Virus record (IMG/VR): IMGVR_UViG_3300002307_000002
Coordinates: 27,266 to 91,265 of that record
From: a virus
DNA: 64,000 bases
Strand: one strand, 5' to 3'
Shown: one piece after another, positions 15,145 through 32,585 of the stretch
Layout: each line of letters begins with the position of its first letter
Position numbering within the stretch: the first letter of the stretch is position 1
Translations under genes and position numbers: made by a program
Notes under the pieces: generated by a model
What the model was told of the DNA's origin: nothing
What the model saw: the letters and a program-made list of their open reading frames with translations, nothing else
The model's database searches: none

Positions 15145-15314
15145 GTATGAGTGGCGGAATTGGTATACGCAACCAGCTTGAGAGCTCCATTCTGGTTTCA
15201 ATGCACCTGACTCGTACTCAGGTTAAGCCGGATAACAGTTACCGGTCACTTCCACCAGGCTTTCCGGGGGTGTAGCATAATTCTCTATTGCAGGTTCGAT
15301 TCCTGTCTCATACA
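15145..15314 (+). ncRNA. enlarged tRNA-like RNA (Leu-type frame, 170 nt)
   Basis: Acceptor GTATGAG/CTCATAC-A, D-arm GCGGAATTGGTATACGC and T-arm GCAGG-TTCGATT-CCTGT, with about 85 extra nt between the D and T arms. Confidence 0.7.
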
Positions 15315-17069: not shown

Positions 17070-17211
17070 AACTCTTGCTATTCTACCTCTTACAGTGTTT
17101 TGTGCTGGGCCGTAGCCACCTTAACATGGGTAATAGGATTGGTAATAATTACAGCCAGTGTTACTAAGAAGAATTCAAAGAATTGACTAACACATTCAAA
17201 AACAACAAGCA

Positions 17212-17883
17212 ATGACAACAACTATACAGGGTGTGACAATCACCCTCACAGATGAGCAGATAGCTGAGATTGAAAAGCAACAGGCTGCTGCTAAACAACC
17301 AAAATTCAAAGTGGGGGATAAAGTCCGTATATTAGGTTCTACAAGGGCATGTACCAACAATCAAATTGGGGTAATCATAGGTATTTCAAACGATGGGAGC
17401 CTTGAAGTATCTTTTCCACAACCTACTGACTGGTGCCATTACGATCCAAAATGGCTTGAGCTTGTACCTGAAACCATCATGGATAAGGTGAAAAGCTGGG
17501 AAGATGCCGGGAAATTGCTTAACCCTTCTTATTGGGTAATGGACAGTGGCAAAATATACAAAGGGAATAACACTTTCAATAAAAGCGAAGATGTAATAAA
17601 TGTTACTTCTGAGCTTCGTGCTAAATCTATCCGTGCTTATGGGCAGCTTTCAGTGATTGCTGATGCACTAAATGAGGGTAAACTGGGTACAGTCTCAATA
17701 TACTGGAACGAGCGTAACAGCAAGATTGAGCCCTATAGCTATGCAGCTTCTGCTGGTGTGGTTAAGTTTGCTACGTTTGAATTAGCTAACTATGCTATCC
17801 AGCAGTTTGCCCCTCTCTGGTACGATTACTTCATGGTTCCAAACCCCAATCAAGGTTCCGATGACAGCACATGTAATCCATAA
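17212..17883 (+). CDS. hypothetical protein with KOW/SH3-like module
   Basis: FKVGDKVRI motif. Confidence 0.6.
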   Translation: MTTTIQGVTITLTDEQIAEIEKQQAAAKQPKFKVGDKVRILGSTRACTNNQIGVIIGISNDGSLEVSFPQPTDWCHYDPKWLELVPETIMDKVKSWEDAGKLLNPSYWVMDSGKIYKGNNTFNKSEDVINVTSELRAKSIRAYGQLSVIADALNEGKLGTVSIYWNERNSKIEPYSYAASAGVVKFATFELANYAIQQFAPLWYDYFMVPNPNQGSDDSTCNP

Positions 17884-18457: not shown

Positions 18458-19050
18458 AAATAGCTGAAAACGGAGCCTGGCTCAACGAGACGAATGAGGG
18501 GCATTGCTTTGACAGTAATTTGGCTGGTGGTATTGTACGTTTTATGGGTGAACACAGCCTAGTATCTGTATTAGACTTGGGCTGTGGAAATGGCTTGTAT
18601 GTAAAATGGTTTAATTCAGCGCCAGAGTTTATAGTGTCATTAGGTGTGGATGGAAATCCACATACAACTGAACTGGGAGGAGTACTTTGTACAACAGCGG
18701 ATTTAAGTAAACCACTTGATATTAATAATTCCATCCACAGGAGTCTGCCACGAATGCAACATTTCAGCTTAATCCTCAGCTTGGAGGTAGGAGAGCACAT
18801 CCCAGCAGAATACGAAAGCACATTTCTCGACAATGTAGTCAAGTATGCCAAAGATTGGATTATCCTAAGCTGGGCAATACCTGGGCAGACTGGCGATGGC
18901 CATGTAAATTGCAGGCCAAACGGCTACATAGCCGGTGAGATGGAAATGCGTGGCTTTGCATCGCAAATGGGTGAGACTGAAAAGCTTAGAGAAGCTTCAA
19001 CTCTGCCGTGGTTCAAAGACACATTGATGGTATTTAAACGAATAACATGA
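18454..19050 (+). CDS. class I SAM-dependent methyltransferase
   Basis: VLDLGCGNG, SLEVGEHI and PGQTGDGHVNC motifs; ATGA-coupled to the glycosyltransferase. Confidence 0.85.
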   Translation: MKIAENGAWLNETNEGHCFDSNLAGGIVRFMGEHSLVSVLDLGCGNGLYVKWFNSAPEFIVSLGVDGNPHTTELGGVLCTTADLSKPLDINNSIHRSLPRMQHFSLILSLEVGEHIPAEYESTFLDNVVKYAKDWIILSWAIPGQTGDGHVNCRPNGYIAGEMEMRGFASQMGETEKLREASTLPWFKDTLMVFKRIT

Positions 19051-19295
19051 TACCAAAAGCTAATATCATTGGTAGAGCAAAAGCTAAACATATACCTGAA
19101 GGAGCAGAGTATGCATTGCTTAGCCATGACCAGAACTTTGTCCAAATATTCATACGTTTCTTCGCTGAAGCTTACAATGATGGTACAACCATTAAACGCT
19201 TGCAGTTTTGGGGAGCCAATCAAAGTTGGGAATACGCTATAGCTGAACAAGAATGGTACACATCTGACAAACGGTACATTCAAATTATAAACTAA
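19047..19295 (+). CDS. hypothetical protein
   Basis: 82 aa ORF with ATGA overlap. Confidence 0.5.
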   Translation: MIPKANIIGRAKAKHIPEGAEYALLSHDQNFVQIFIRFFAEAYNDGTTIKRLQFWGANQSWEYAIAEQEWYTSDKRYIQIIN

Positions 19296-19451
19296 ACGAT
19301 TTCAGGGTCAGAGCGGTAACCAATCCGTGTCATTCCCTGGCCCGACGTCTCAGTGATGAGTAGCCGGGAACAAAAGAGGTTCGACTCCTCAATACCAAAT
19401 CGTACACATGGGTAGTGTGGCGGTGAGGGGTATCAGTGAAAGCCTGACAAG

Positions 19452-19526
19452 TAAACCATAGCTTACAATGGTAGAGCCTCTGACTAATATCAGAGAGATG
19501 TCGGTTCGAATCCGACTGGTTTACCA
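19452..19526 (+). tRNA. tRNA with aberrant anticodon loop (Ile-AAT-like or undetermined)
   Basis: TAAACCA/TGGTTTA acceptor, D-arm GCTT...TGGTAGAGC, T-arm GTCGG-TTCGAAT-CCGAC. Anticodon arm is CTCTGA-CTAATA-TCAGAG with a 6-nt loop. Confidence 0.75.
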
Positions 19527-19728
19527 AGAACAGCAGTATTCATAGGACAACATCTAACGTCTGGGAAGTGGTTCGATGCCATGGGATGGCCAGTTGCTAC
19601 GACTGGTGTCTGAGTGGATGTAGTTATCCAAAGACCGTATGCGTACTAAAGTTGGGTTGAACTGTACGTGAAAGCGTGTGCCAAGGTATGAAACTTACCA
19701 AATAATTACTGTAGCAAGCTGCTGTTCT
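19527..19728 (+). ncRNA. candidate ~200-nt multibranch structured RNA between two tRNA-like elements
   Basis: 10-bp closing stem AGAACAGCAG/CTGCTGTTCT. Internal hairpins CCAGT/ACTGG, TGGAT/ATCCA, ACGT-GAAA-GCGT and GGTA/TACC, plus a T-loop-like GTGG-TTCGATG-CCAT. Confidence 0.5.
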
Positions 19729-19732
19729 ACTT

Positions 19733-19847
19733 GAACTGTTGGTGAAATTGGAAGAGACACAGCCTATTAAGGGGTCGGAGTACAATAGCAAAACCCAAGA
19801 GGTAAACCGAATAACTCCAATTATGGGTTCAAATCCCATACAGTTCA
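19733..19847 (+). ncRNA. enlarged tRNA-like RNA (Leu-type frame, 115 nt)
   Basis: Acceptor GAACTGT/ACAGTTC-A, D-arm GTGAAATTGGAAGAGACAC and T-arm ATGGG-TTCAAAT-CCCAT. The anticodon arm is weak and an extended GGAGT...ACTCC arm follows. Confidence 0.65.
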
Positions 19848-19935
19848 CTTTCAGGTACCGGTTGCGCACACGCTGCAGCCCTGCGCTTTAAAGCCGGTAC
19901 CTCAACTTCTACTTTGTGGTAATCAAGTTAACCAC

Positions 19936-19981
19936 TGTAAGCTGACGCAGCAAAAGCTATGACCGTCAGCTTACATTTTTT
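19936..19981 (+). terminator. terminator closing the RNA cluster
   Basis: TGTAAGCTGACG/CGTCAGCTTACA stem followed by TTTTTT. Confidence 0.75.
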
Positions 19982-20082
19982 CCTTTCGGGCAGAGGCCCA
20001 ATTCCAAACACACAATCTTAATTAACAATCCTCAGCTTGTGAGCTGCAGGATACTTATTTCCTAACACTTAAACATTCAGTT

Positions 20083-20316
20083 ATGCTAATGCTAACATTG
20101 CTTTCAATCAAATTGCCTTTAATGACATTTACCCTGGGCCTGGTTATAGGCTTAATAGCAGGAATTCTTATAACTATTGGGGCTTTCTATGCTGCTCAAC
20201 GAATTAATGAAGATGATGACGGCCAGGATGAAATTGATGGGTATGCTGTACCCATGGACAAAACTTATTTCAAACATCCTCAACCCGCAAAGTATGAACA
20301 CGAAAATGAGAATTGA
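20083..20316 (+). CDS. small single-TM protein with acidic tail
   Basis: FTLGLVIGLIAGILITIG followed by EDDDGQDE. Confidence 0.55.
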   Translation: MLMLTLLSIKLPLMTFTLGLVIGLIAGILITIGAFYAAQRINEDDDGQDEIDGYAVPMDKTYFKHPQPAKYEHENEN

Positions 20317-20649
20317 GGCTGGGCCAGGTACGTGGGAGATTGAATACCATCTTTCTACAAGAACACTACCAGGTACAGTTGTACTGTCTTCAGTACGATA
20401 TAGGCTTGACTGGTTTACTGATGACATACCAGCTTACAGCGATAACATGCTGCCCTATTTTGGGGCGCGTCTTATAATCAAGTTTCAAGACTTAGTAAAA
20501 CAACATCACAAAACAATCAAATAACTAACCACCGGGGGTTCTTAGGCGGGAGCAGACACAGTGAACAGGACATGTGAGCACGAAGTCAGTGAGATAAGAT
20601 AGTGAGGAGCCACCTCAGTCTCCTCCCGGTCGGTTTAAAACTTAATGAA

Positions 20650-23534: not shown

Positions 23535-23993
23535 GGGGGTGTACTTGGTATTGACAGCAAGTAATAGACTGGTATCACATGCAAGGCTTGGGAGAGCCAA
23601 ACAACTCCTAAACAACAACTGACACACGTCAAACTGAAGGCGCTGCCATCATCCGTATGGCATTTGCTTCTGAGAAAGCTGTAGCAGCTTAATCAGGTGC
23701 CTGACCAGCATTCTATAAGGTTGATAGTTTGTACGTTCTATCGGGCCAAAAATGTACATCAACAGTTTTCAGCTTCTGTCAAAAGCTGATGGTGGAGTCG
23801 GCCCGCGGGAAACCAACGGCCCCAATTAGTAATCAGAGTGTTTACGAGGTAGTAACGTAATTAAATATATTACTGGCACACCGCAAGGAACAAATTATAG
23901 CCTCAGATTAACCGTGATGGGTAACATCTAAGCATGTAAGAAAGGTATCAGGGTATTCTTGTTTGGACGCCGGTTCGACTCCGGCCACCTCCA
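23535..23993 (+). ncRNA. ssrA: tmRNA (transfer-messenger RNA)
   Basis: 5' GGGGGTG...GGTATTGACAGC and 3' GGACGCCGG-TTCGACT-CCGGC-CACCTCC-A, giving G3:U70 and A73. The internal tag ORF 23621-23692 ends in AVAA-stop. Confidence 0.93.
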
Positions 23994-24021
23994 CAATTAT
24001 CCAACAACTAAAATCAATTTA

Positions 24022-29316: not shown

Positions 29317-29772
29317 GTGGTAAAACTCCGCTACAACTTCTACTGGAACAAAAGCTGGTGGAGAGACTTAAAAAGCAATCGTCATCCTATGTTGGTAAAC
29401 CGTAAAACAATTGACCAGGTAGCCCAGACACCATTAATTGTTCATGTACGGGCAGAGCTGGTGTACTTCTCAGCTTCCACAGCTGCAAAGCTGGATATTA
29501 CAGGAGGGGATTACATACACTTCAACAATGATGAGGAACACTGGACATTCTGGGTGAACAATGACCCGGATGGTTTCCTCTGTACCTCTGAGCACAATGG
29601 GTCAGTGAGAGTGTTCTCCAGACCGTTGGCTCAGCTCATACTGAAGTCTGTAAAGAAATCCCCGGTGGCTCAGTTTTATGTGATAGAAACAATGGCCAAG
29701 CTGGATGGAAGTAAGGTATTTGAAATCTTAACAAACAAAACCGTGAAAGAAACGGGAAAGGAGACAGTATGA
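29317..29772 (+). CDS. hypothetical protein
   Basis: ORF between polA and the kinase. Confidence 0.55.
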   Translation: MVKLRYNFYWNKSWWRDLKSNRHPMLVNRKTIDQVAQTPLIVHVRAELVYFSASTAAKLDITGGDYIHFNNDEEHWTFWVNNDPDGFLCTSEHNGSVRVFSRPLAQLILKSVKKSPVAQFYVIETMAKLDGSKVFEILTNKTVKETGKETV

Positions 29773-30632
29773 TATTTTCAATAAGCGGAAGAGCAGGTGC
29801 CGGTAAAGATACAGTAGGCAAGCTCATACAGTGGTATTTCTATAAAGAACGTGCTAAACAGATTCCTACTTTATTAAAAAATCAAGAAGTTTTATTGTCT
29901 TTGGATAGCTGGTTAAGTTTAGGTATAGCGGAAGTACAAACTTCTCAATCAGGCTGGAAGATTGTAAAATGGGCCACAGCACTACGTCAGGTAGCAGCTA
30001 TTCTGCTTGGTATGCCTGAAGAGTTTCTGTACACGGATGAGTTCAAACAAATGGTGTTGCCTGACTGTTGGTCAACAACTTCAGGTAAAGATGGTATTCA
30101 TACACTATCTGTTGGTATGACTGGCCGTGAATTCCTTCAAAAGCTGGGTACAGATGCAATCAGGAGTGGCCTCCATCCACAGACGTGGGTGAATGCTTTG
30201 ATGAGCAAGTATAAAACTGTAAGAGGCTGTGGTCAGCGTTGTGCAAGAAGCGAAGAAAACAATTGCTCAGAGGAATGTATATCAGCTGATTGGTGCTACA
30301 ATGCTGTTTATCCAAGCTGGATTATTACCGACACCCGTTTTCCAAATGAGCTTGAAGCTGTTAAACAGGTAGGCGCTGTAAGCATTCGGGTTAATCGGCC
30401 AGCGGTGCATTACCAAAATCATGCAGGCATACTAACACCTTTACACCCTTCTGAGACAGCTTTAGATGATGCAGAATTCGACTTCACGATAGATAATACT
30501 GGCTCGATAGACCAGCTTGCAGAGCAGGTGAAGGCCATTGTTCAATCCACACTTAAATCTAACGAAAATGCAAACAGCAGAATTAACTCCGAAGACAACG
30601 ACACCGAGGCTCCAAGCCGTACAGAAGAATGA
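29769..30632 (+). CDS. deoxynucleoside monophosphate kinase
   Basis: ISGRAGAGKDT P-loop, REFLQKLGT, IITDTRFPNE and HPSETALD motifs. Confidence 0.9.
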   Translation: MIFSISGRAGAGKDTVGKLIQWYFYKERAKQIPTLLKNQEVLLSLDSWLSLGIAEVQTSQSGWKIVKWATALRQVAAILLGMPEEFLYTDEFKQMVLPDCWSTTSGKDGIHTLSVGMTGREFLQKLGTDAIRSGLHPQTWVNALMSKYKTVRGCGQRCARSEENNCSEECISADWCYNAVYPSWIITDTRFPNELEAVKQVGAVSIRVNRPAVHYQNHAGILTPLHPSETALDDAEFDFTIDNTGSIDQLAEQVKAIVQSTLKSNENANSRINSEDNDTEAPSRTEE

Positions 30633-31017: not shown

Positions 31018-31396
31018 AGCACCATTTGCCGTGCTTAGAGGGTTTGCTGGTGTTGGTAAAAGCACCGTAACCAATAAGCTGGTGAATGAACTGAAGAAGA
31101 TAGATGGTGGGCGCATAGGAGTGTGCGCCCCCACTCACAAAGCTATCAAAGTGCTCCGTAAAAATGCCATTCCTGGGATAGACTACAGAACAGTGCATAG
31201 CATGCTGGCTCTTAAGGAGTCAGTAGACCACCGCACTGGTAAGAAGTCTTATGTACCTGACCCACGGAAGCTGGCAGAGGAGCCAGTGTCTGATCTCAGC
31301 TATCTGTTTGTGGATGAGACGAGCATGCTTAACAAGGCCCTGTTCGATTACCTGGTGCCATGGATTAAGCAAGGCTTGAAAGTGGTGTTCATCGGT
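30878..31396 (+). CDS. Dda/RecD-like SF1B helicase, exon 1
   Basis: GFAGVGKS, APTHKA, TVHSML and VDETSM motifs; ends VVFIG at the intron. Confidence 0.88.
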
Positions 31397-31676
31397 GAAT
31401 AGATTGCCGATATAAAATCCCTTTAATTGCTGGAAAATCTTGAAGGCATATCAACTACAACGTAAGCTGAAAAGCTAAGCGTGAATGTTAAAAAATGATA
31501 TGTTATAAGACAATCAGCAGCCAAGTCCCTTTTAACTGGGAAAGGTTCAACGACTATCTCGAAAGAGAGTACATAAGCTCTATATTATAGGCTTTTGGAA
31601 ATGGGGGAATTTGAGAGAAGTAGTCTTTCAAATAAGATATAGTCTGGTCTTACTGGTGACAGTAAGTTAACAAACG
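31397..31676 (+). mobile_element. group I intron (280 nt, no ORF) in the helicase gene
   Basis: P1 ATCGGT/GCCGAT with U:G; core AATTGCTGGAAA, AATCAGCAG, GTTCAACGACTA and AAGATATAGTCT; terminal G. Splicing restores IG|DPAQ (helicase motif III). Confidence 0.93.
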
Positions 31677-32585
31677 GATCCAGCCCAAATAAACCCAGTG
31701 GGAGAGAAGGACTCCATCCCATTCCTTCATGCCTCAGCTTGGGGAGCAGTGATAACTGAGCTCACACAGGCAATGCGACAGAAGGATAGCAATCCAATCC
31801 TGGAATTTGCTACAGCTATCAGGAATGATTACAAGAGTGGCTCATTCACTCCTGTTAATCATCAGCTTTCCACTGGTGAGGGTATAGCACTGATTGATCA
31901 TGCCAGCGAAGAAGAACACAGGCTGCTAACAGAGTATTTTGGTAGCGAGGCATTTGCCGCTGACCCAGATTACATGAAAGTGGTAGCCTGGCGAAATGCT
32001 ACGGTGGACACTTACAACGGCATCATCAGGCGTATCATCTACAAAGATGCTCACTTGTGTGACATTATGAATGATGAAAGGCTGGTGATGGATGCTCCTT
32101 TCAGCATGAACGGCAAGGCTATCCTGAATAACAACGAAGAAATTGTTGTTCTCAGCTCACGTACCGGCACCAAAGGAGTGCAATGGCTGGATAACACTGG
32201 CCCCCGGTTGGCAAGCTTTAAAGTGTACTATGCCATTGTTCAGTGGGAAGCAGAAGGCCGGACAAAAACTGCCACCCTGCCAATCATCCATGAGGAGAGT
32301 AAGACAGACCTGTCCAATACCTTATCCAGCTTGAGGGATATTGCCCTTAAAGCAGATGCCGCTTTCCGTGGTAAAGCATGGAAGCAATTCTTTGAGGTAC
32401 AGGATGCTTTTGCCTGGGTGAAGTACAACTATGCTATTACGGGCCATTCTTCACAGGGCTCAACATACGACAACTGTTTAGTTCTCAAGTGGGATATTGA
32501 CTACAATAAGAACATTGAAGAACGAAACAGGATACTGTATACAGCCTGTACCCGTGCAAAACACACATTATTCATTGAAGCTTAA
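31677..32585 (+). CDS. Dda/RecD-like SF1B helicase, exon 2
   Basis: DPAQINPV, LTQAMRQ, YAITGHSSQGSTY and YTACTRA motifs. Confidence 0.9.
   Translation, partial: DPAQINPVGEKDSIPFLHASAWGAVITELTQAMRQKDSNPILEFATAIRNDYKSGSFTPVNHQLSTGEGIALIDHASEEEHRLLTEYFGSEAFAADPDYMKVVAWRNATVDTYNGIIRRIIYKDAHLCDIMNDERLVMDAPFSMNGKAILNNNEEIVVLSSRTGTKGVQWLDNTGPRLASFKVYYAIVQWEAEGRTKTATLPIIHEESKTDLSNTLSSLRDIALKADAAFRGKAWKQFFEVQDAFAWVKYNYAITGHSSQGSTYDNCLVLKWDIDYNKNIEERNRILYTACTRAKHTLFIEA

What the first reader, a model, noticed from the sequence alone, without database searches (positions are those of the whole stretch)
19527..19728. ~200-nt structured RNA clamped exactly between two tRNA-like punctuation marks
Seen: the 10-bp closing stem AGAACAGCAG/CTGCTGTTCT starts at the first base after the CCA of the upstream tRNA and ends 4 nt before the next tRNA-like element. 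It contains at least five hairpins, including a GAAA tetraloop and a T-loop-like motif. I do not recognise it: it has no RNase P GAGGAAAGUCC and is not rod-like like 6S. Inference: tRNA processing would release it with precise ends, so it may be the cargo of the cluster.
Basis: partly seen in the sequence, partly recalled or inferred. Interest (0 to 1): 0.72.

Follow-up and report, generated by a model that had tools for sequence, protein, structure and literature searches.

The report
Unclassified phage RNA between tRNA genes
A 202-base non-coding stretch with paired ends sits between a tRNA and a tRNA-like gene in a freshwater crAss-like phage; it is probably a small RNA cut out by tRNA-processing enzymes, like the long-known but unexplained "species 1 and 2" RNAs of phage T4, but only one close relative is known to carry it and its function is unproven.

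Summary
The 10-bp end pairing (11 with a G-U pair) and its position are real. It starts 1-3 nt after the upstream tRNA and ends 4 nt before the downstream tRNA-like element. X (19527-19728) has stops in all six frames and matches no Rfam family even at E<=10.

Two features are not special on their own:
- The folding z-score (-2.2 to -2.5) falls at about the 8th percentile of arbitrary windows of the same genome.
- About 26 perfect 10-bp inverted repeats with similar spacing occur in the 91-kb genome.
- The T-loop and GAAA hairpins are absent from the predicted ensemble.

The best support is comparative. A ~92%-identical phage contig in a 2025 sequencing run keeps X's first 96 nt and last 24 nt with 2 differences in 124 nt. 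The neighbouring gene has 51 differences in 644 nt. That contig swaps X's middle 82 nt for 49 others, lacks the downstream tRNA-like element, and replaces the upstream tRNA. The breakpoints fall within 1-3 nt of X's paired ends.

No homologue turned up in INPHARED, IMG/VR, JGI metagenomes, GTDB genomes or ten related phage records.

Best reading (about 0.45): a discrete cassette of a fast-changing phage tRNA-like operon, released as an end-paired small RNA. The scan's earlier notes on this stretch all come from this same genome, not from other DNA.

The parts
19452..19525 (+). Upstream tRNA with a 6-nt anticodon loop (CUAAUA). The acceptor stem ends at 19523, the discriminator is C19524, and CAA follows.
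   Evidence: ARAGORN reports tRNA-??? with anticodon (aa). Rfam tRNA scores 48 bits.
19527..19728 (+). X: a 202-nt non-coding unit with paired ends.
   Evidence: Stops in all six frames. No Rfam match at E<=10. MFE -63.9 kcal/mol. Single copy in the genome.
19527..19537 (+). 5' strand of closing stem P1.
   Evidence: Pairs with 19718-19728 at probability 0.93-1.0. Lies in a block retained in the relative with 2 differences in 99 nt.
19718..19728 (+). 3' strand of closing stem P1.
   Evidence: Lies in block 19705-19729, which has 0 differences in the relative.
19568..19582 (+). T-arm-like hairpin: GUGG stem, UUCGAUG loop, CCAU stem.
   Evidence: One of only six such motifs in the 91-kb genome. 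Not in the MFE; forcing it costs +4 kcal/mol.
19589..19607 (+). 8-bp hairpin with a CUA loop, inside the conserved 5' block.
19623..19704 (+). Variable middle block of X.
   Evidence: Replaced by 49 unrelated letters in the run-X2 contig. Contains hairpin 19640-19670.
19657..19673 (+). A 15-of-17 copy of the 5' end of the downstream tRNA-like element (19731-19747).
   Evidence: the repeat finder family D3. Local alignment p about 0.04 against shuffles.
19733..19847 (+). Downstream tRNA-like element. Acceptor, D and T arms are intact, and 56 nt stand where the 17-nt anticodon arm would be.
   Evidence: Rfam tRNA 31.9 bits. Stretch 19730-19849 is absent from the relative, which has ATTTC instead.
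19296..19373 (+). Conserved leading element of the cluster.
   Evidence: 90% nucleotide identity to L002/L004, whose flanking methyltransferase is only 64% identical in protein. 3 differences in 76 nt in the run-X2 contig.
19850..19902 (+). Conserved strong hairpin after the tRNA-like element.
   Evidence: 0 differences in 53 nt in the relative. Folded.
19936..19982 (+). Terminator-like element: a 12-bp perfect hairpin followed by a T run, closing the RNA cluster.
   Evidence: Inverted repeat I4; sequence. Stretch 19903-19982 is absent from the relative.

Best explanation
X is a discrete non-coding cassette in a fast-changing tRNA and tRNA-like RNA operon (19296-19982, + strand) of a 91-kb freshwater crAss-like phage.

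Proposed mechanism, all inferred:
- The operon is transcribed as one precursor that ends at the hairpin and T run near 19982.
- 3' maturation of the upstream tRNA, which has no full CCA and so probably uses an RNase Z-type cut after C19524, creates X's 5' end.
- RNase P cleavage at G19733 of the downstream tRNA-like element creates X's 3' end.
- The product is an RNA of about 205 nt whose 11-bp terminal helix shields both ends from exonucleases.
- It persists as a small stable RNA, analogous to T4 species 1 and 2 RNAs.
- Its intact T-arm motif suggests that it engages proteins or RNAs that recognise the tRNA elbow, for example as a decoy.

Shown: the anatomy, the lack of coding capacity, the module borders, and sequence constraint on the 5' 96 nt and the 3' 24 nt.
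Inferred: transcription, processing, stability and function.
For: - End pairing is flush with the tRNA borders and robust in context.
- All six T-arm motifs in the genome, the neighbouring genes, and the terminator-like hairpin with its T run lie on the + strand.
- In the run-X2 contig the cassette borders coincide with X's ends: 19524 at the 5' side and 19729 at the 3' side.
- X's retained blocks show 2 differences in 124 nt against 51 in 644 nt in the adjacent methyltransferase gene (Fisher p=0.0066).
- 24 of the 39 listed differences inside that gene fall at third codon positions (table 3; my own count). Near-neutral divergence is therefore well above 8%, and X's blocks evolve several-fold slower.
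- Precedent: in T4 the small stable RNAs rnaD and rnaC directly abut tRNA-Arg. rnaC also has paired ends and a T-arm.
- T4 tRNA-operon precursors are RNase P substrates (PMC11143913).
Against: - No homologue was found beyond one close relative, so there is no covariation test.
- The middle 82 nt are replaced in that relative, and both flanking tRNA elements differ or are missing there. The tRNA clamp is therefore not an obligatory feature.
- The folding z-score is ordinary for this genome.
- The T-arm is not predicted by nearest-neighbour folding.
- High identity of short blocks could reflect recombination rather than selection. The aligner also reports only blocks that are at least 80% alike, which biases what counts as retained.
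Confidence: 0.45

Rival explanations
1. X is a non-functional spacer made of recombination debris. tRNA arrays in phages gain and lose cassettes quickly. X would be a patchwork of leftover tRNA-gene fragments whose hairpins and end pairing are incidental.
For: - X contains a lone T-arm and a 15-of-17 copy of the neighbouring tRNA-like element's 5' end.
- Its middle third is swapped in the nearest relative.
- It is absent from ten related phage records, and the closest IMG/VR relative lacks 19375-19990 entirely.
- The z-score is ordinary, and about 26 comparable 10-bp inverted repeats occur in the genome.
Against: - The retained blocks are 98.4% identical while the adjacent gene is 92% identical, with most changes at third codon positions.
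- The T-arm keeps every consensus position (G53, U54, U55, C56, R57, A58, C61), which decaying debris would not be expected to do.
- The stem ends coincide with the tRNA borders and with the comparative breakpoints.
- The tRNA model gives no hit inside X at E<=10, and similarity to the phage's other tRNA-like genes is marginal.
Confidence: 0.25
2. X is a cis-acting processing or insulating element rather than a product. Its terminal helix brings the 3' end of one tRNA and the 5' end of the next together, or keeps neighbouring tRNA-like units from misfolding. This would resemble the leader-trailer helices of rRNA operons. X would be degraded after cleavage.
For: - The strongest and best-conserved feature is the closing helix itself, with 0 differences in the 3' strand block.
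- The interior tolerates replacement.
- The helix persists when the whole cluster is folded.
Against: - The 5' block of 96 nt is conserved well beyond the 11-nt helix strand.
- In the relative the downstream tRNA-like element is missing yet X is kept. A pure inter-tRNA spacer role does not explain that retention.
Confidence: 0.15
3. X is one domain of a larger structured RNA spanning 19296-19982, with tRNA-like units inserted in variable regions as seen in some GOLLD RNAs. Alternatively, it acts at the DNA level, for example as a recombination or regulatory site.
For: - Conserved blocks (19299-19374, 19524-19622, 19705-19729, 19850-19902, 19983-20106) alternate with swapped blocks.
- That GOLLD and ROOL RNAs lie near tRNAs in phages is from my own knowledge and was not checked here.
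Against: - No GOLLD, ROOL or other Rfam match at E<=10.
- The closest IMG/VR relative keeps the first block alone, without any of the others. The blocks are therefore separable.
Confidence: 0.08

Closest known systems
Phage T4 small stable RNAs rnaC (species 1, 139 nt) and rnaD (species 2, 119 nt)
   Same: - They lie inside a phage tRNA gene cluster on the same strand and directly abut a tRNA, with gaps of 1 and 6 nt.
- rnaC has paired ends and a canonical T-arm.
- The record gives no function beyond 'small, stable RNA'.
- T4 tRNA-operon precursors are processed by RNase P (PMC11143913).
   Different: - There is no sequence or structure similarity: model R1 finds nothing in the T4 region.
- X is longer.
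- Its T-arm lies near the 5' side rather than next to the 3' strand of the end helix.
- X is followed by a tRNA-like element, whereas the T4 RNAs end the cluster.
- T4's RNAs are recorded as stable species; X has no expression data.
tRNA-scaffold RNAs of the same phage and its relatives (15145-15314; 19733-19847; tRNA matches of 108 and 162 nt in related records)
   Same: They share the same strand and the same operon-like setting, have paired ends, and carry a T-arm motif.
   Different: Those elements keep the tRNA order (acceptor, D arm, insert, T arm, acceptor) and score above the Rfam tRNA threshold. X does not match the tRNA model at all.
Bacterial Y RNAs (YrlA) bound by Rsr/Ro60
   Same: Paired 5' and 3' ends plus a tRNA-like T-arm module, and a similar size range (my own knowledge of the family).
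   Different: No Rfam match at E<=10. The end helix is perfect, with no bulged Ro-binding site. The phage has no TROVE-domain gene.
tRNA-punctuated release of non-tRNA RNAs (MALAT1-mascRNA; gammaherpesvirus tRNA-linked small RNAs)
   Same: The principle is that RNase P or RNase Z acting on a tRNA-like unit defines the end of an attached RNA (PMC8457004 and PMC4337559, listed; abstracts only were read).
   Different: Those systems are eukaryotic or animal-virus and are unrelated in sequence. Here the processing is only inferred.

Membership tests
Any Rfam 15 family (4227 models, including RNase P, 6S, tmRNA, Y RNA, GOLLD, ROOL, ribozymes) | Covariance-model match to X | tested here: not met
   No match overlapping the interior of 19527-19728 at E<=10 with permissive filters. 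None at gathering score.
tRNA (RF00005) | Cloverleaf with acceptor, D, anticodon and T arms in order | tested here: not met
   The tRNA model hits only the two flanking elements. ARAGORN at a lowered threshold with introns allowed finds nothing credible in X. Only a lone T-arm motif is present.
T4-type small stable RNA of a phage tRNA operon | Lies in a phage tRNA cluster on the same strand and abuts a tRNA | tested here: met
   X starts 1-3 nt after the tRNA and ends 4 nt before the tRNA-like element. The T4 layout is shown.
T4-type small stable RNA of a phage tRNA operon | Accumulates as a discrete stable RNA released by tRNA-processing enzymes | not testable with these tools
   No listed run holding the stretch is on record as RNA. 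Only DNA contigs could be laid.
T4-type small stable RNA of a phage tRNA operon | Sequence or structure homology to rnaC or rnaD | tested here: not met
   Model R1 finds no match in T4 69000-74000. INPHARED blastn found no match.
Y RNA / YrlA | Partner rsr (TROVE) gene and a Ro-binding bulged helix | tested here: not met
   No TROVE match in the phage genome at E<=1. P1 is a perfect helix. A host-encoded Rsr cannot be excluded.
Conserved structured RNA (generic criterion) | Compensatory base changes across homologues | not testable with these tools
   The only relative with X is a run contig whose letters were not returned. No other homologue was found.

The most novel reading that the evidence does not exclude
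X founds a new class of phage RNA. It would be an end-protected RNA bearing a T-loop, released by tRNA processing, that mimics the tRNA elbow. In that role it could soak up a host tRNA-targeting defence nuclease or a tRNA-modifying or tRNA-repair enzyme. Its swappable middle domain would act as the specificity module.
Probability: 0.1. Interest if true: 0.65.

Novelty: new member of a known kind. Interest (0 to 1): 0.32.

Why it matters
Small stable RNAs embedded in phage tRNA operons have been known since T4, yet to my knowledge they remain unexplained. If X is real, it would show that the arrangement also exists in crAss-like phages of freshwater. There it sits among odd tRNA-like genes and near a phage tmRNA, and its interior is exchangeable. 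That would give a second, independent system for asking what such RNAs do. As it stands, the evidence shows a constrained, discrete non-coding module, not a demonstrated RNA or function.

Tried and rejected
Homologue searches that found nothing useful:
- INPHARED phages by blastn.
- IMG/VR exact-pattern scans with three pieces of X or its neighbour. They gave only chance hits or none.
- An IMG/VR scan for the leading element, which found only the two known relatives.
- A JGI metagenome 20-mer, which gave one chance hit.
- A GTDB genome 20-mer covering the T-arm and the following bases, to test whether X copies a host tRNA 3' end. It gave two chance hits, neither a tRNA.
- blastn of 19380-20000 on five related records.
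- A single-sequence covariance model on ten related records, and on T4 and the window.
- nhmmer for paralogues in the phage's own genome.

Other attempts:
- The flanking 82-aa ORF has no relatives in IMG/VR.
- The flanking methyltransferase has no protein closer than 59% identity in the 5.8-billion-protein set. Synteny therefore could not supply closer relatives.
- Relatives cannot be drawn for a virus record.
- No RNA holder is listed among public runs.
- The run-X2 contig could be laid but not read letter by letter. The two substitutions in X and the 49-nt replacement are therefore unknown.

Readings rejected:
- RNase P, 6S, Y RNA, GOLLD, ROOL and ribozymes: no Rfam match.
- A coding region: stops in all frames. 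Only a 24-codon ATG frame is open from about 19581, and half of it lies in the block that is swapped in the relative.
- A MITE-like element: no target-site duplication, and the interior rather than the whole unit varies.
- A Bacteroidota -7 promoter: no TAnnTTTG near the cluster.
- The generic scan called no terminator because the hairpin loop is 16 nt.
- Neighbouring genes give no functional hint. They are a methyltransferase, a glycosyltransferase-like protein and unknowns.
- The T4 genome review could not be read, and literature searches for T4 species 1 RNA found no direct source.

Full report
**Setting.** The window is bases 27266-91265 of a 91,265-bp IMG/VR virus record with direct terminal repeats. 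The source is a freshwater metagenome. Its major head protein, portal and large terminase match PHROG families. Earlier notes of this scan call the phage crAss-like. I did not independently confirm that these PHROG families are crAss-specific.

Genes around the finding all lie on the + strand. Between the stop of an 82-aa ORF (19295) and the next start (20083) there are 787 nt with stops in all six frames. This stretch contains the following units:
- a conserved leading element (19296-19373) and a lone T-arm at 19376-19390;
- a tRNA (19452-19525);
- X (19527-19728);
- a tRNA-like element (19733-19847);
- a strong hairpin (19850-19902);
- a 12-bp hairpin followed by a T run (19936-19982).

**The observation.** The two 10-mers are perfectly complementary, and a U-G pair makes the stem 11 bp. 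Pair probabilities are 0.93-1.0 even when the whole cluster is folded.

The upstream tRNA scores 48 bits but has a 6-nt anticodon loop, so ARAGORN cannot name it. Its acceptor stem ends at 19523 and C19524 is the discriminator. The downstream element scores 31.9 bits, above the tRNA threshold of 29, with 56 nt where the 17-nt anticodon arm belongs.

X matches no Rfam family at E<=10.

The claim of a remarkable structure is weaker than it looked:
- The z-score is -2.46 or -2.24, and 5 of 61 arbitrary 202-nt windows of the same genome fold at least as well relative to their shuffles.
- About 26 perfect 10-bp inverted repeats spaced 100-300 nt exist in the genome.
- The T-loop and GAAA hairpins are not in the predicted ensemble and cost about 4 kcal/mol to force.

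The T-arm motif itself is not random. Only six copies exist in 91 kb, all on the + strand. Four lie in tRNA, tRNA-like or tmRNA genes and two lone ones lie in this cluster.

**Relatives.** The closest IMG/VR relatives (L002/L004) have a flanking methyltransferase that is 64% identical in protein. They keep the leading element at 90% nucleotide identity but go from it almost straight to the next gene. They lack 19375-19990 altogether.

Whole-record searches of ten related phages found no X, neither by blastn nor with a covariance model built from X. Pattern scans of IMG/VR, JGI metagenomes and GTDB genomes gave only chance hits. INPHARED gave nothing. The flanking protein has no relative above 59% identity in 5.8 billion proteins. 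The lineage is therefore very thinly sampled.

**The one informative relative.** A 92,415-nt contig in a 2025 run (X2) is about 92% identical across the methyltransferase gene, with 51 differences in 644 nt. Of the 39 listed differences inside that ORF, 24 are at third codon positions (my own count from table 3). This is the pattern of a vertically diverging gene under purifying selection.

Across the RNA cluster that contig alternates between near-identity and wholesale replacement:

| Window stretch | State in the run-X2 contig |
|---|---|
| 19299-19374 | kept, 3 differences |
| 19375-19523 (includes the tRNA) | replaced by 379 other letters |
| 19524-19622 | kept, 2 differences in 99 nt |
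| 19623-19704 | replaced by 49 letters |
| 19705-19729 | kept, 0 differences |
| 19730-19849 (the tRNA-like element) | absent, ATTTC instead |
| 19850-19902 | kept, 0 differences |
| 19903-19982 | absent |
| 19983-20106 | kept, 5 differences |

Two points follow:
- The breakpoints at 19523/19524 and 19729/19730 lie within 1-3 nt of the outer ends of P1. X therefore behaves as a module with exactly the borders the end helix predicts.
- X's retained parts have 2 differences in 124 nt, against 51 in 644 nt for the gene (Fisher p=0.0066). They are several-fold below the third-position divergence.

Caveats apply. The aligner reports only blocks at least 80% alike. Mosaic recombination could also create identical patches. 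I could not read the contig's letters, so the two substitutions and the replacement domain are unknown.

A third run (X3, from another study) holds an identical 154-nt contig spanning 19642-19795. This shows only that the same phage exists elsewhere.

**Signs of tRNA-derived material.** X carries a T-arm with every consensus position intact. It also carries a 15-of-17 copy of the first bases of the downstream tRNA-like element (19657-19673 against 19731-19747, p about 0.04). Other similarities to the phage's tRNA-like genes are not significant.

**Interpretation.** The most economical reading is that X is a discrete, constrained, non-coding cassette of a phage tRNA-like operon. It would be co-transcribed with its neighbours and freed by the enzymes that mature them. 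Its terminal helix would protect both ends.

This is the situation annotated in T4. There the small stable RNAs rnaD and rnaC abut tRNA-Arg, and rnaC likewise has paired ends and a T-arm. T4 tRNA-operon precursors are classic RNase P substrates (PMC11143913).

X has no sequence or structural similarity to those RNAs. The resemblance is one of kind, not of family.

The main rival is that X is a spacer built of recombination debris. Several observations favour it: X's absence from related phages, its swappable middle, its ordinary folding energy and the tRNA fragments inside it. The low divergence of its retained blocks, the intact T-arm and the coincidence of stem ends with module borders count against it.

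A cis-acting processing helix and a domain of a larger RNA are lesser possibilities.

**Verdict.**
- The kind of element is known, as in the T4 precedent.
- No family membership can be claimed.
- Expression, processing and function are untested.
- Interest is modest until more relatives or RNA data are available.

Noticed in passing
window 19452-19525: A high-scoring tRNA (48 bits) with a 6-nt anticodon loop (CUAAUA), or an 8-nt loop if the closing A-U pair opens. ARAGORN cannot assign an anticodon. G19451 could pair with C19524, giving a His-like -1:73 pair.
   Followed up: partly
window 19296-19373 (L002 4588-4666): A 78-nt non-coding element that is 90% identical to relatives whose flanking protein is only 64% identical. 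It is also kept in the run-X2 contig (3 differences in 76 nt). One U-A to C-G double change fits a CUCA/UGAG hairpin with a GUGA loop. No Rfam match. It is the best-conserved part of the cluster.
   Followed up: partly
window 19043-20502 compared with the run-X2 contig: The whole region is cassette-like. The 82-aa ORF (19047-19295) is replaced by 1016 other letters in the relative and is missing in L002. The terminator-like hairpin block 19903-19982 is absent in the relative.
   Followed up: partly
window 23535-23996; L020 1498-1843: A phage-encoded tmRNA (69.5 bits, 462 nt against a 374-position model). The closest complete relative also carries a tmRNA (72.3 bits), so tmRNA is a conserved trait of this phage group.
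   Followed up: partly
window 15145-15314; G003 17173-17280; G002 911-1072: tRNA-model matches of 170, 108 and 162 nt. These have tRNA frames with large inserts where the anticodon or variable region belongs, and they recur in related phages.
   Followed up: no
window 31387-31666: A full-length group I intron match (84.7 bits), lying between ORFs 29769-30632 and 31698-32585.
   Followed up: no
window, whole: The Bacteroidota -7 promoter word TAnnTTTG occurs 23 times against 56.7±7 expected from shuffles, a marked depletion.
   Followed up: no
window 19460-19472 and 19931-19943: A 13-nt stretch of the tRNA's D-arm region is 92% complementary to the sequence leading into the terminator-like hairpin. 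This may be chance.
   Followed up: no
window 52168-53292: A tyrosine-integrase match (PHROG 1, E=1.6e-25) next to a short tRNA match at 52056-52118. This is unusual for a phage of this type if it really is crAss-like.
   Followed up: no
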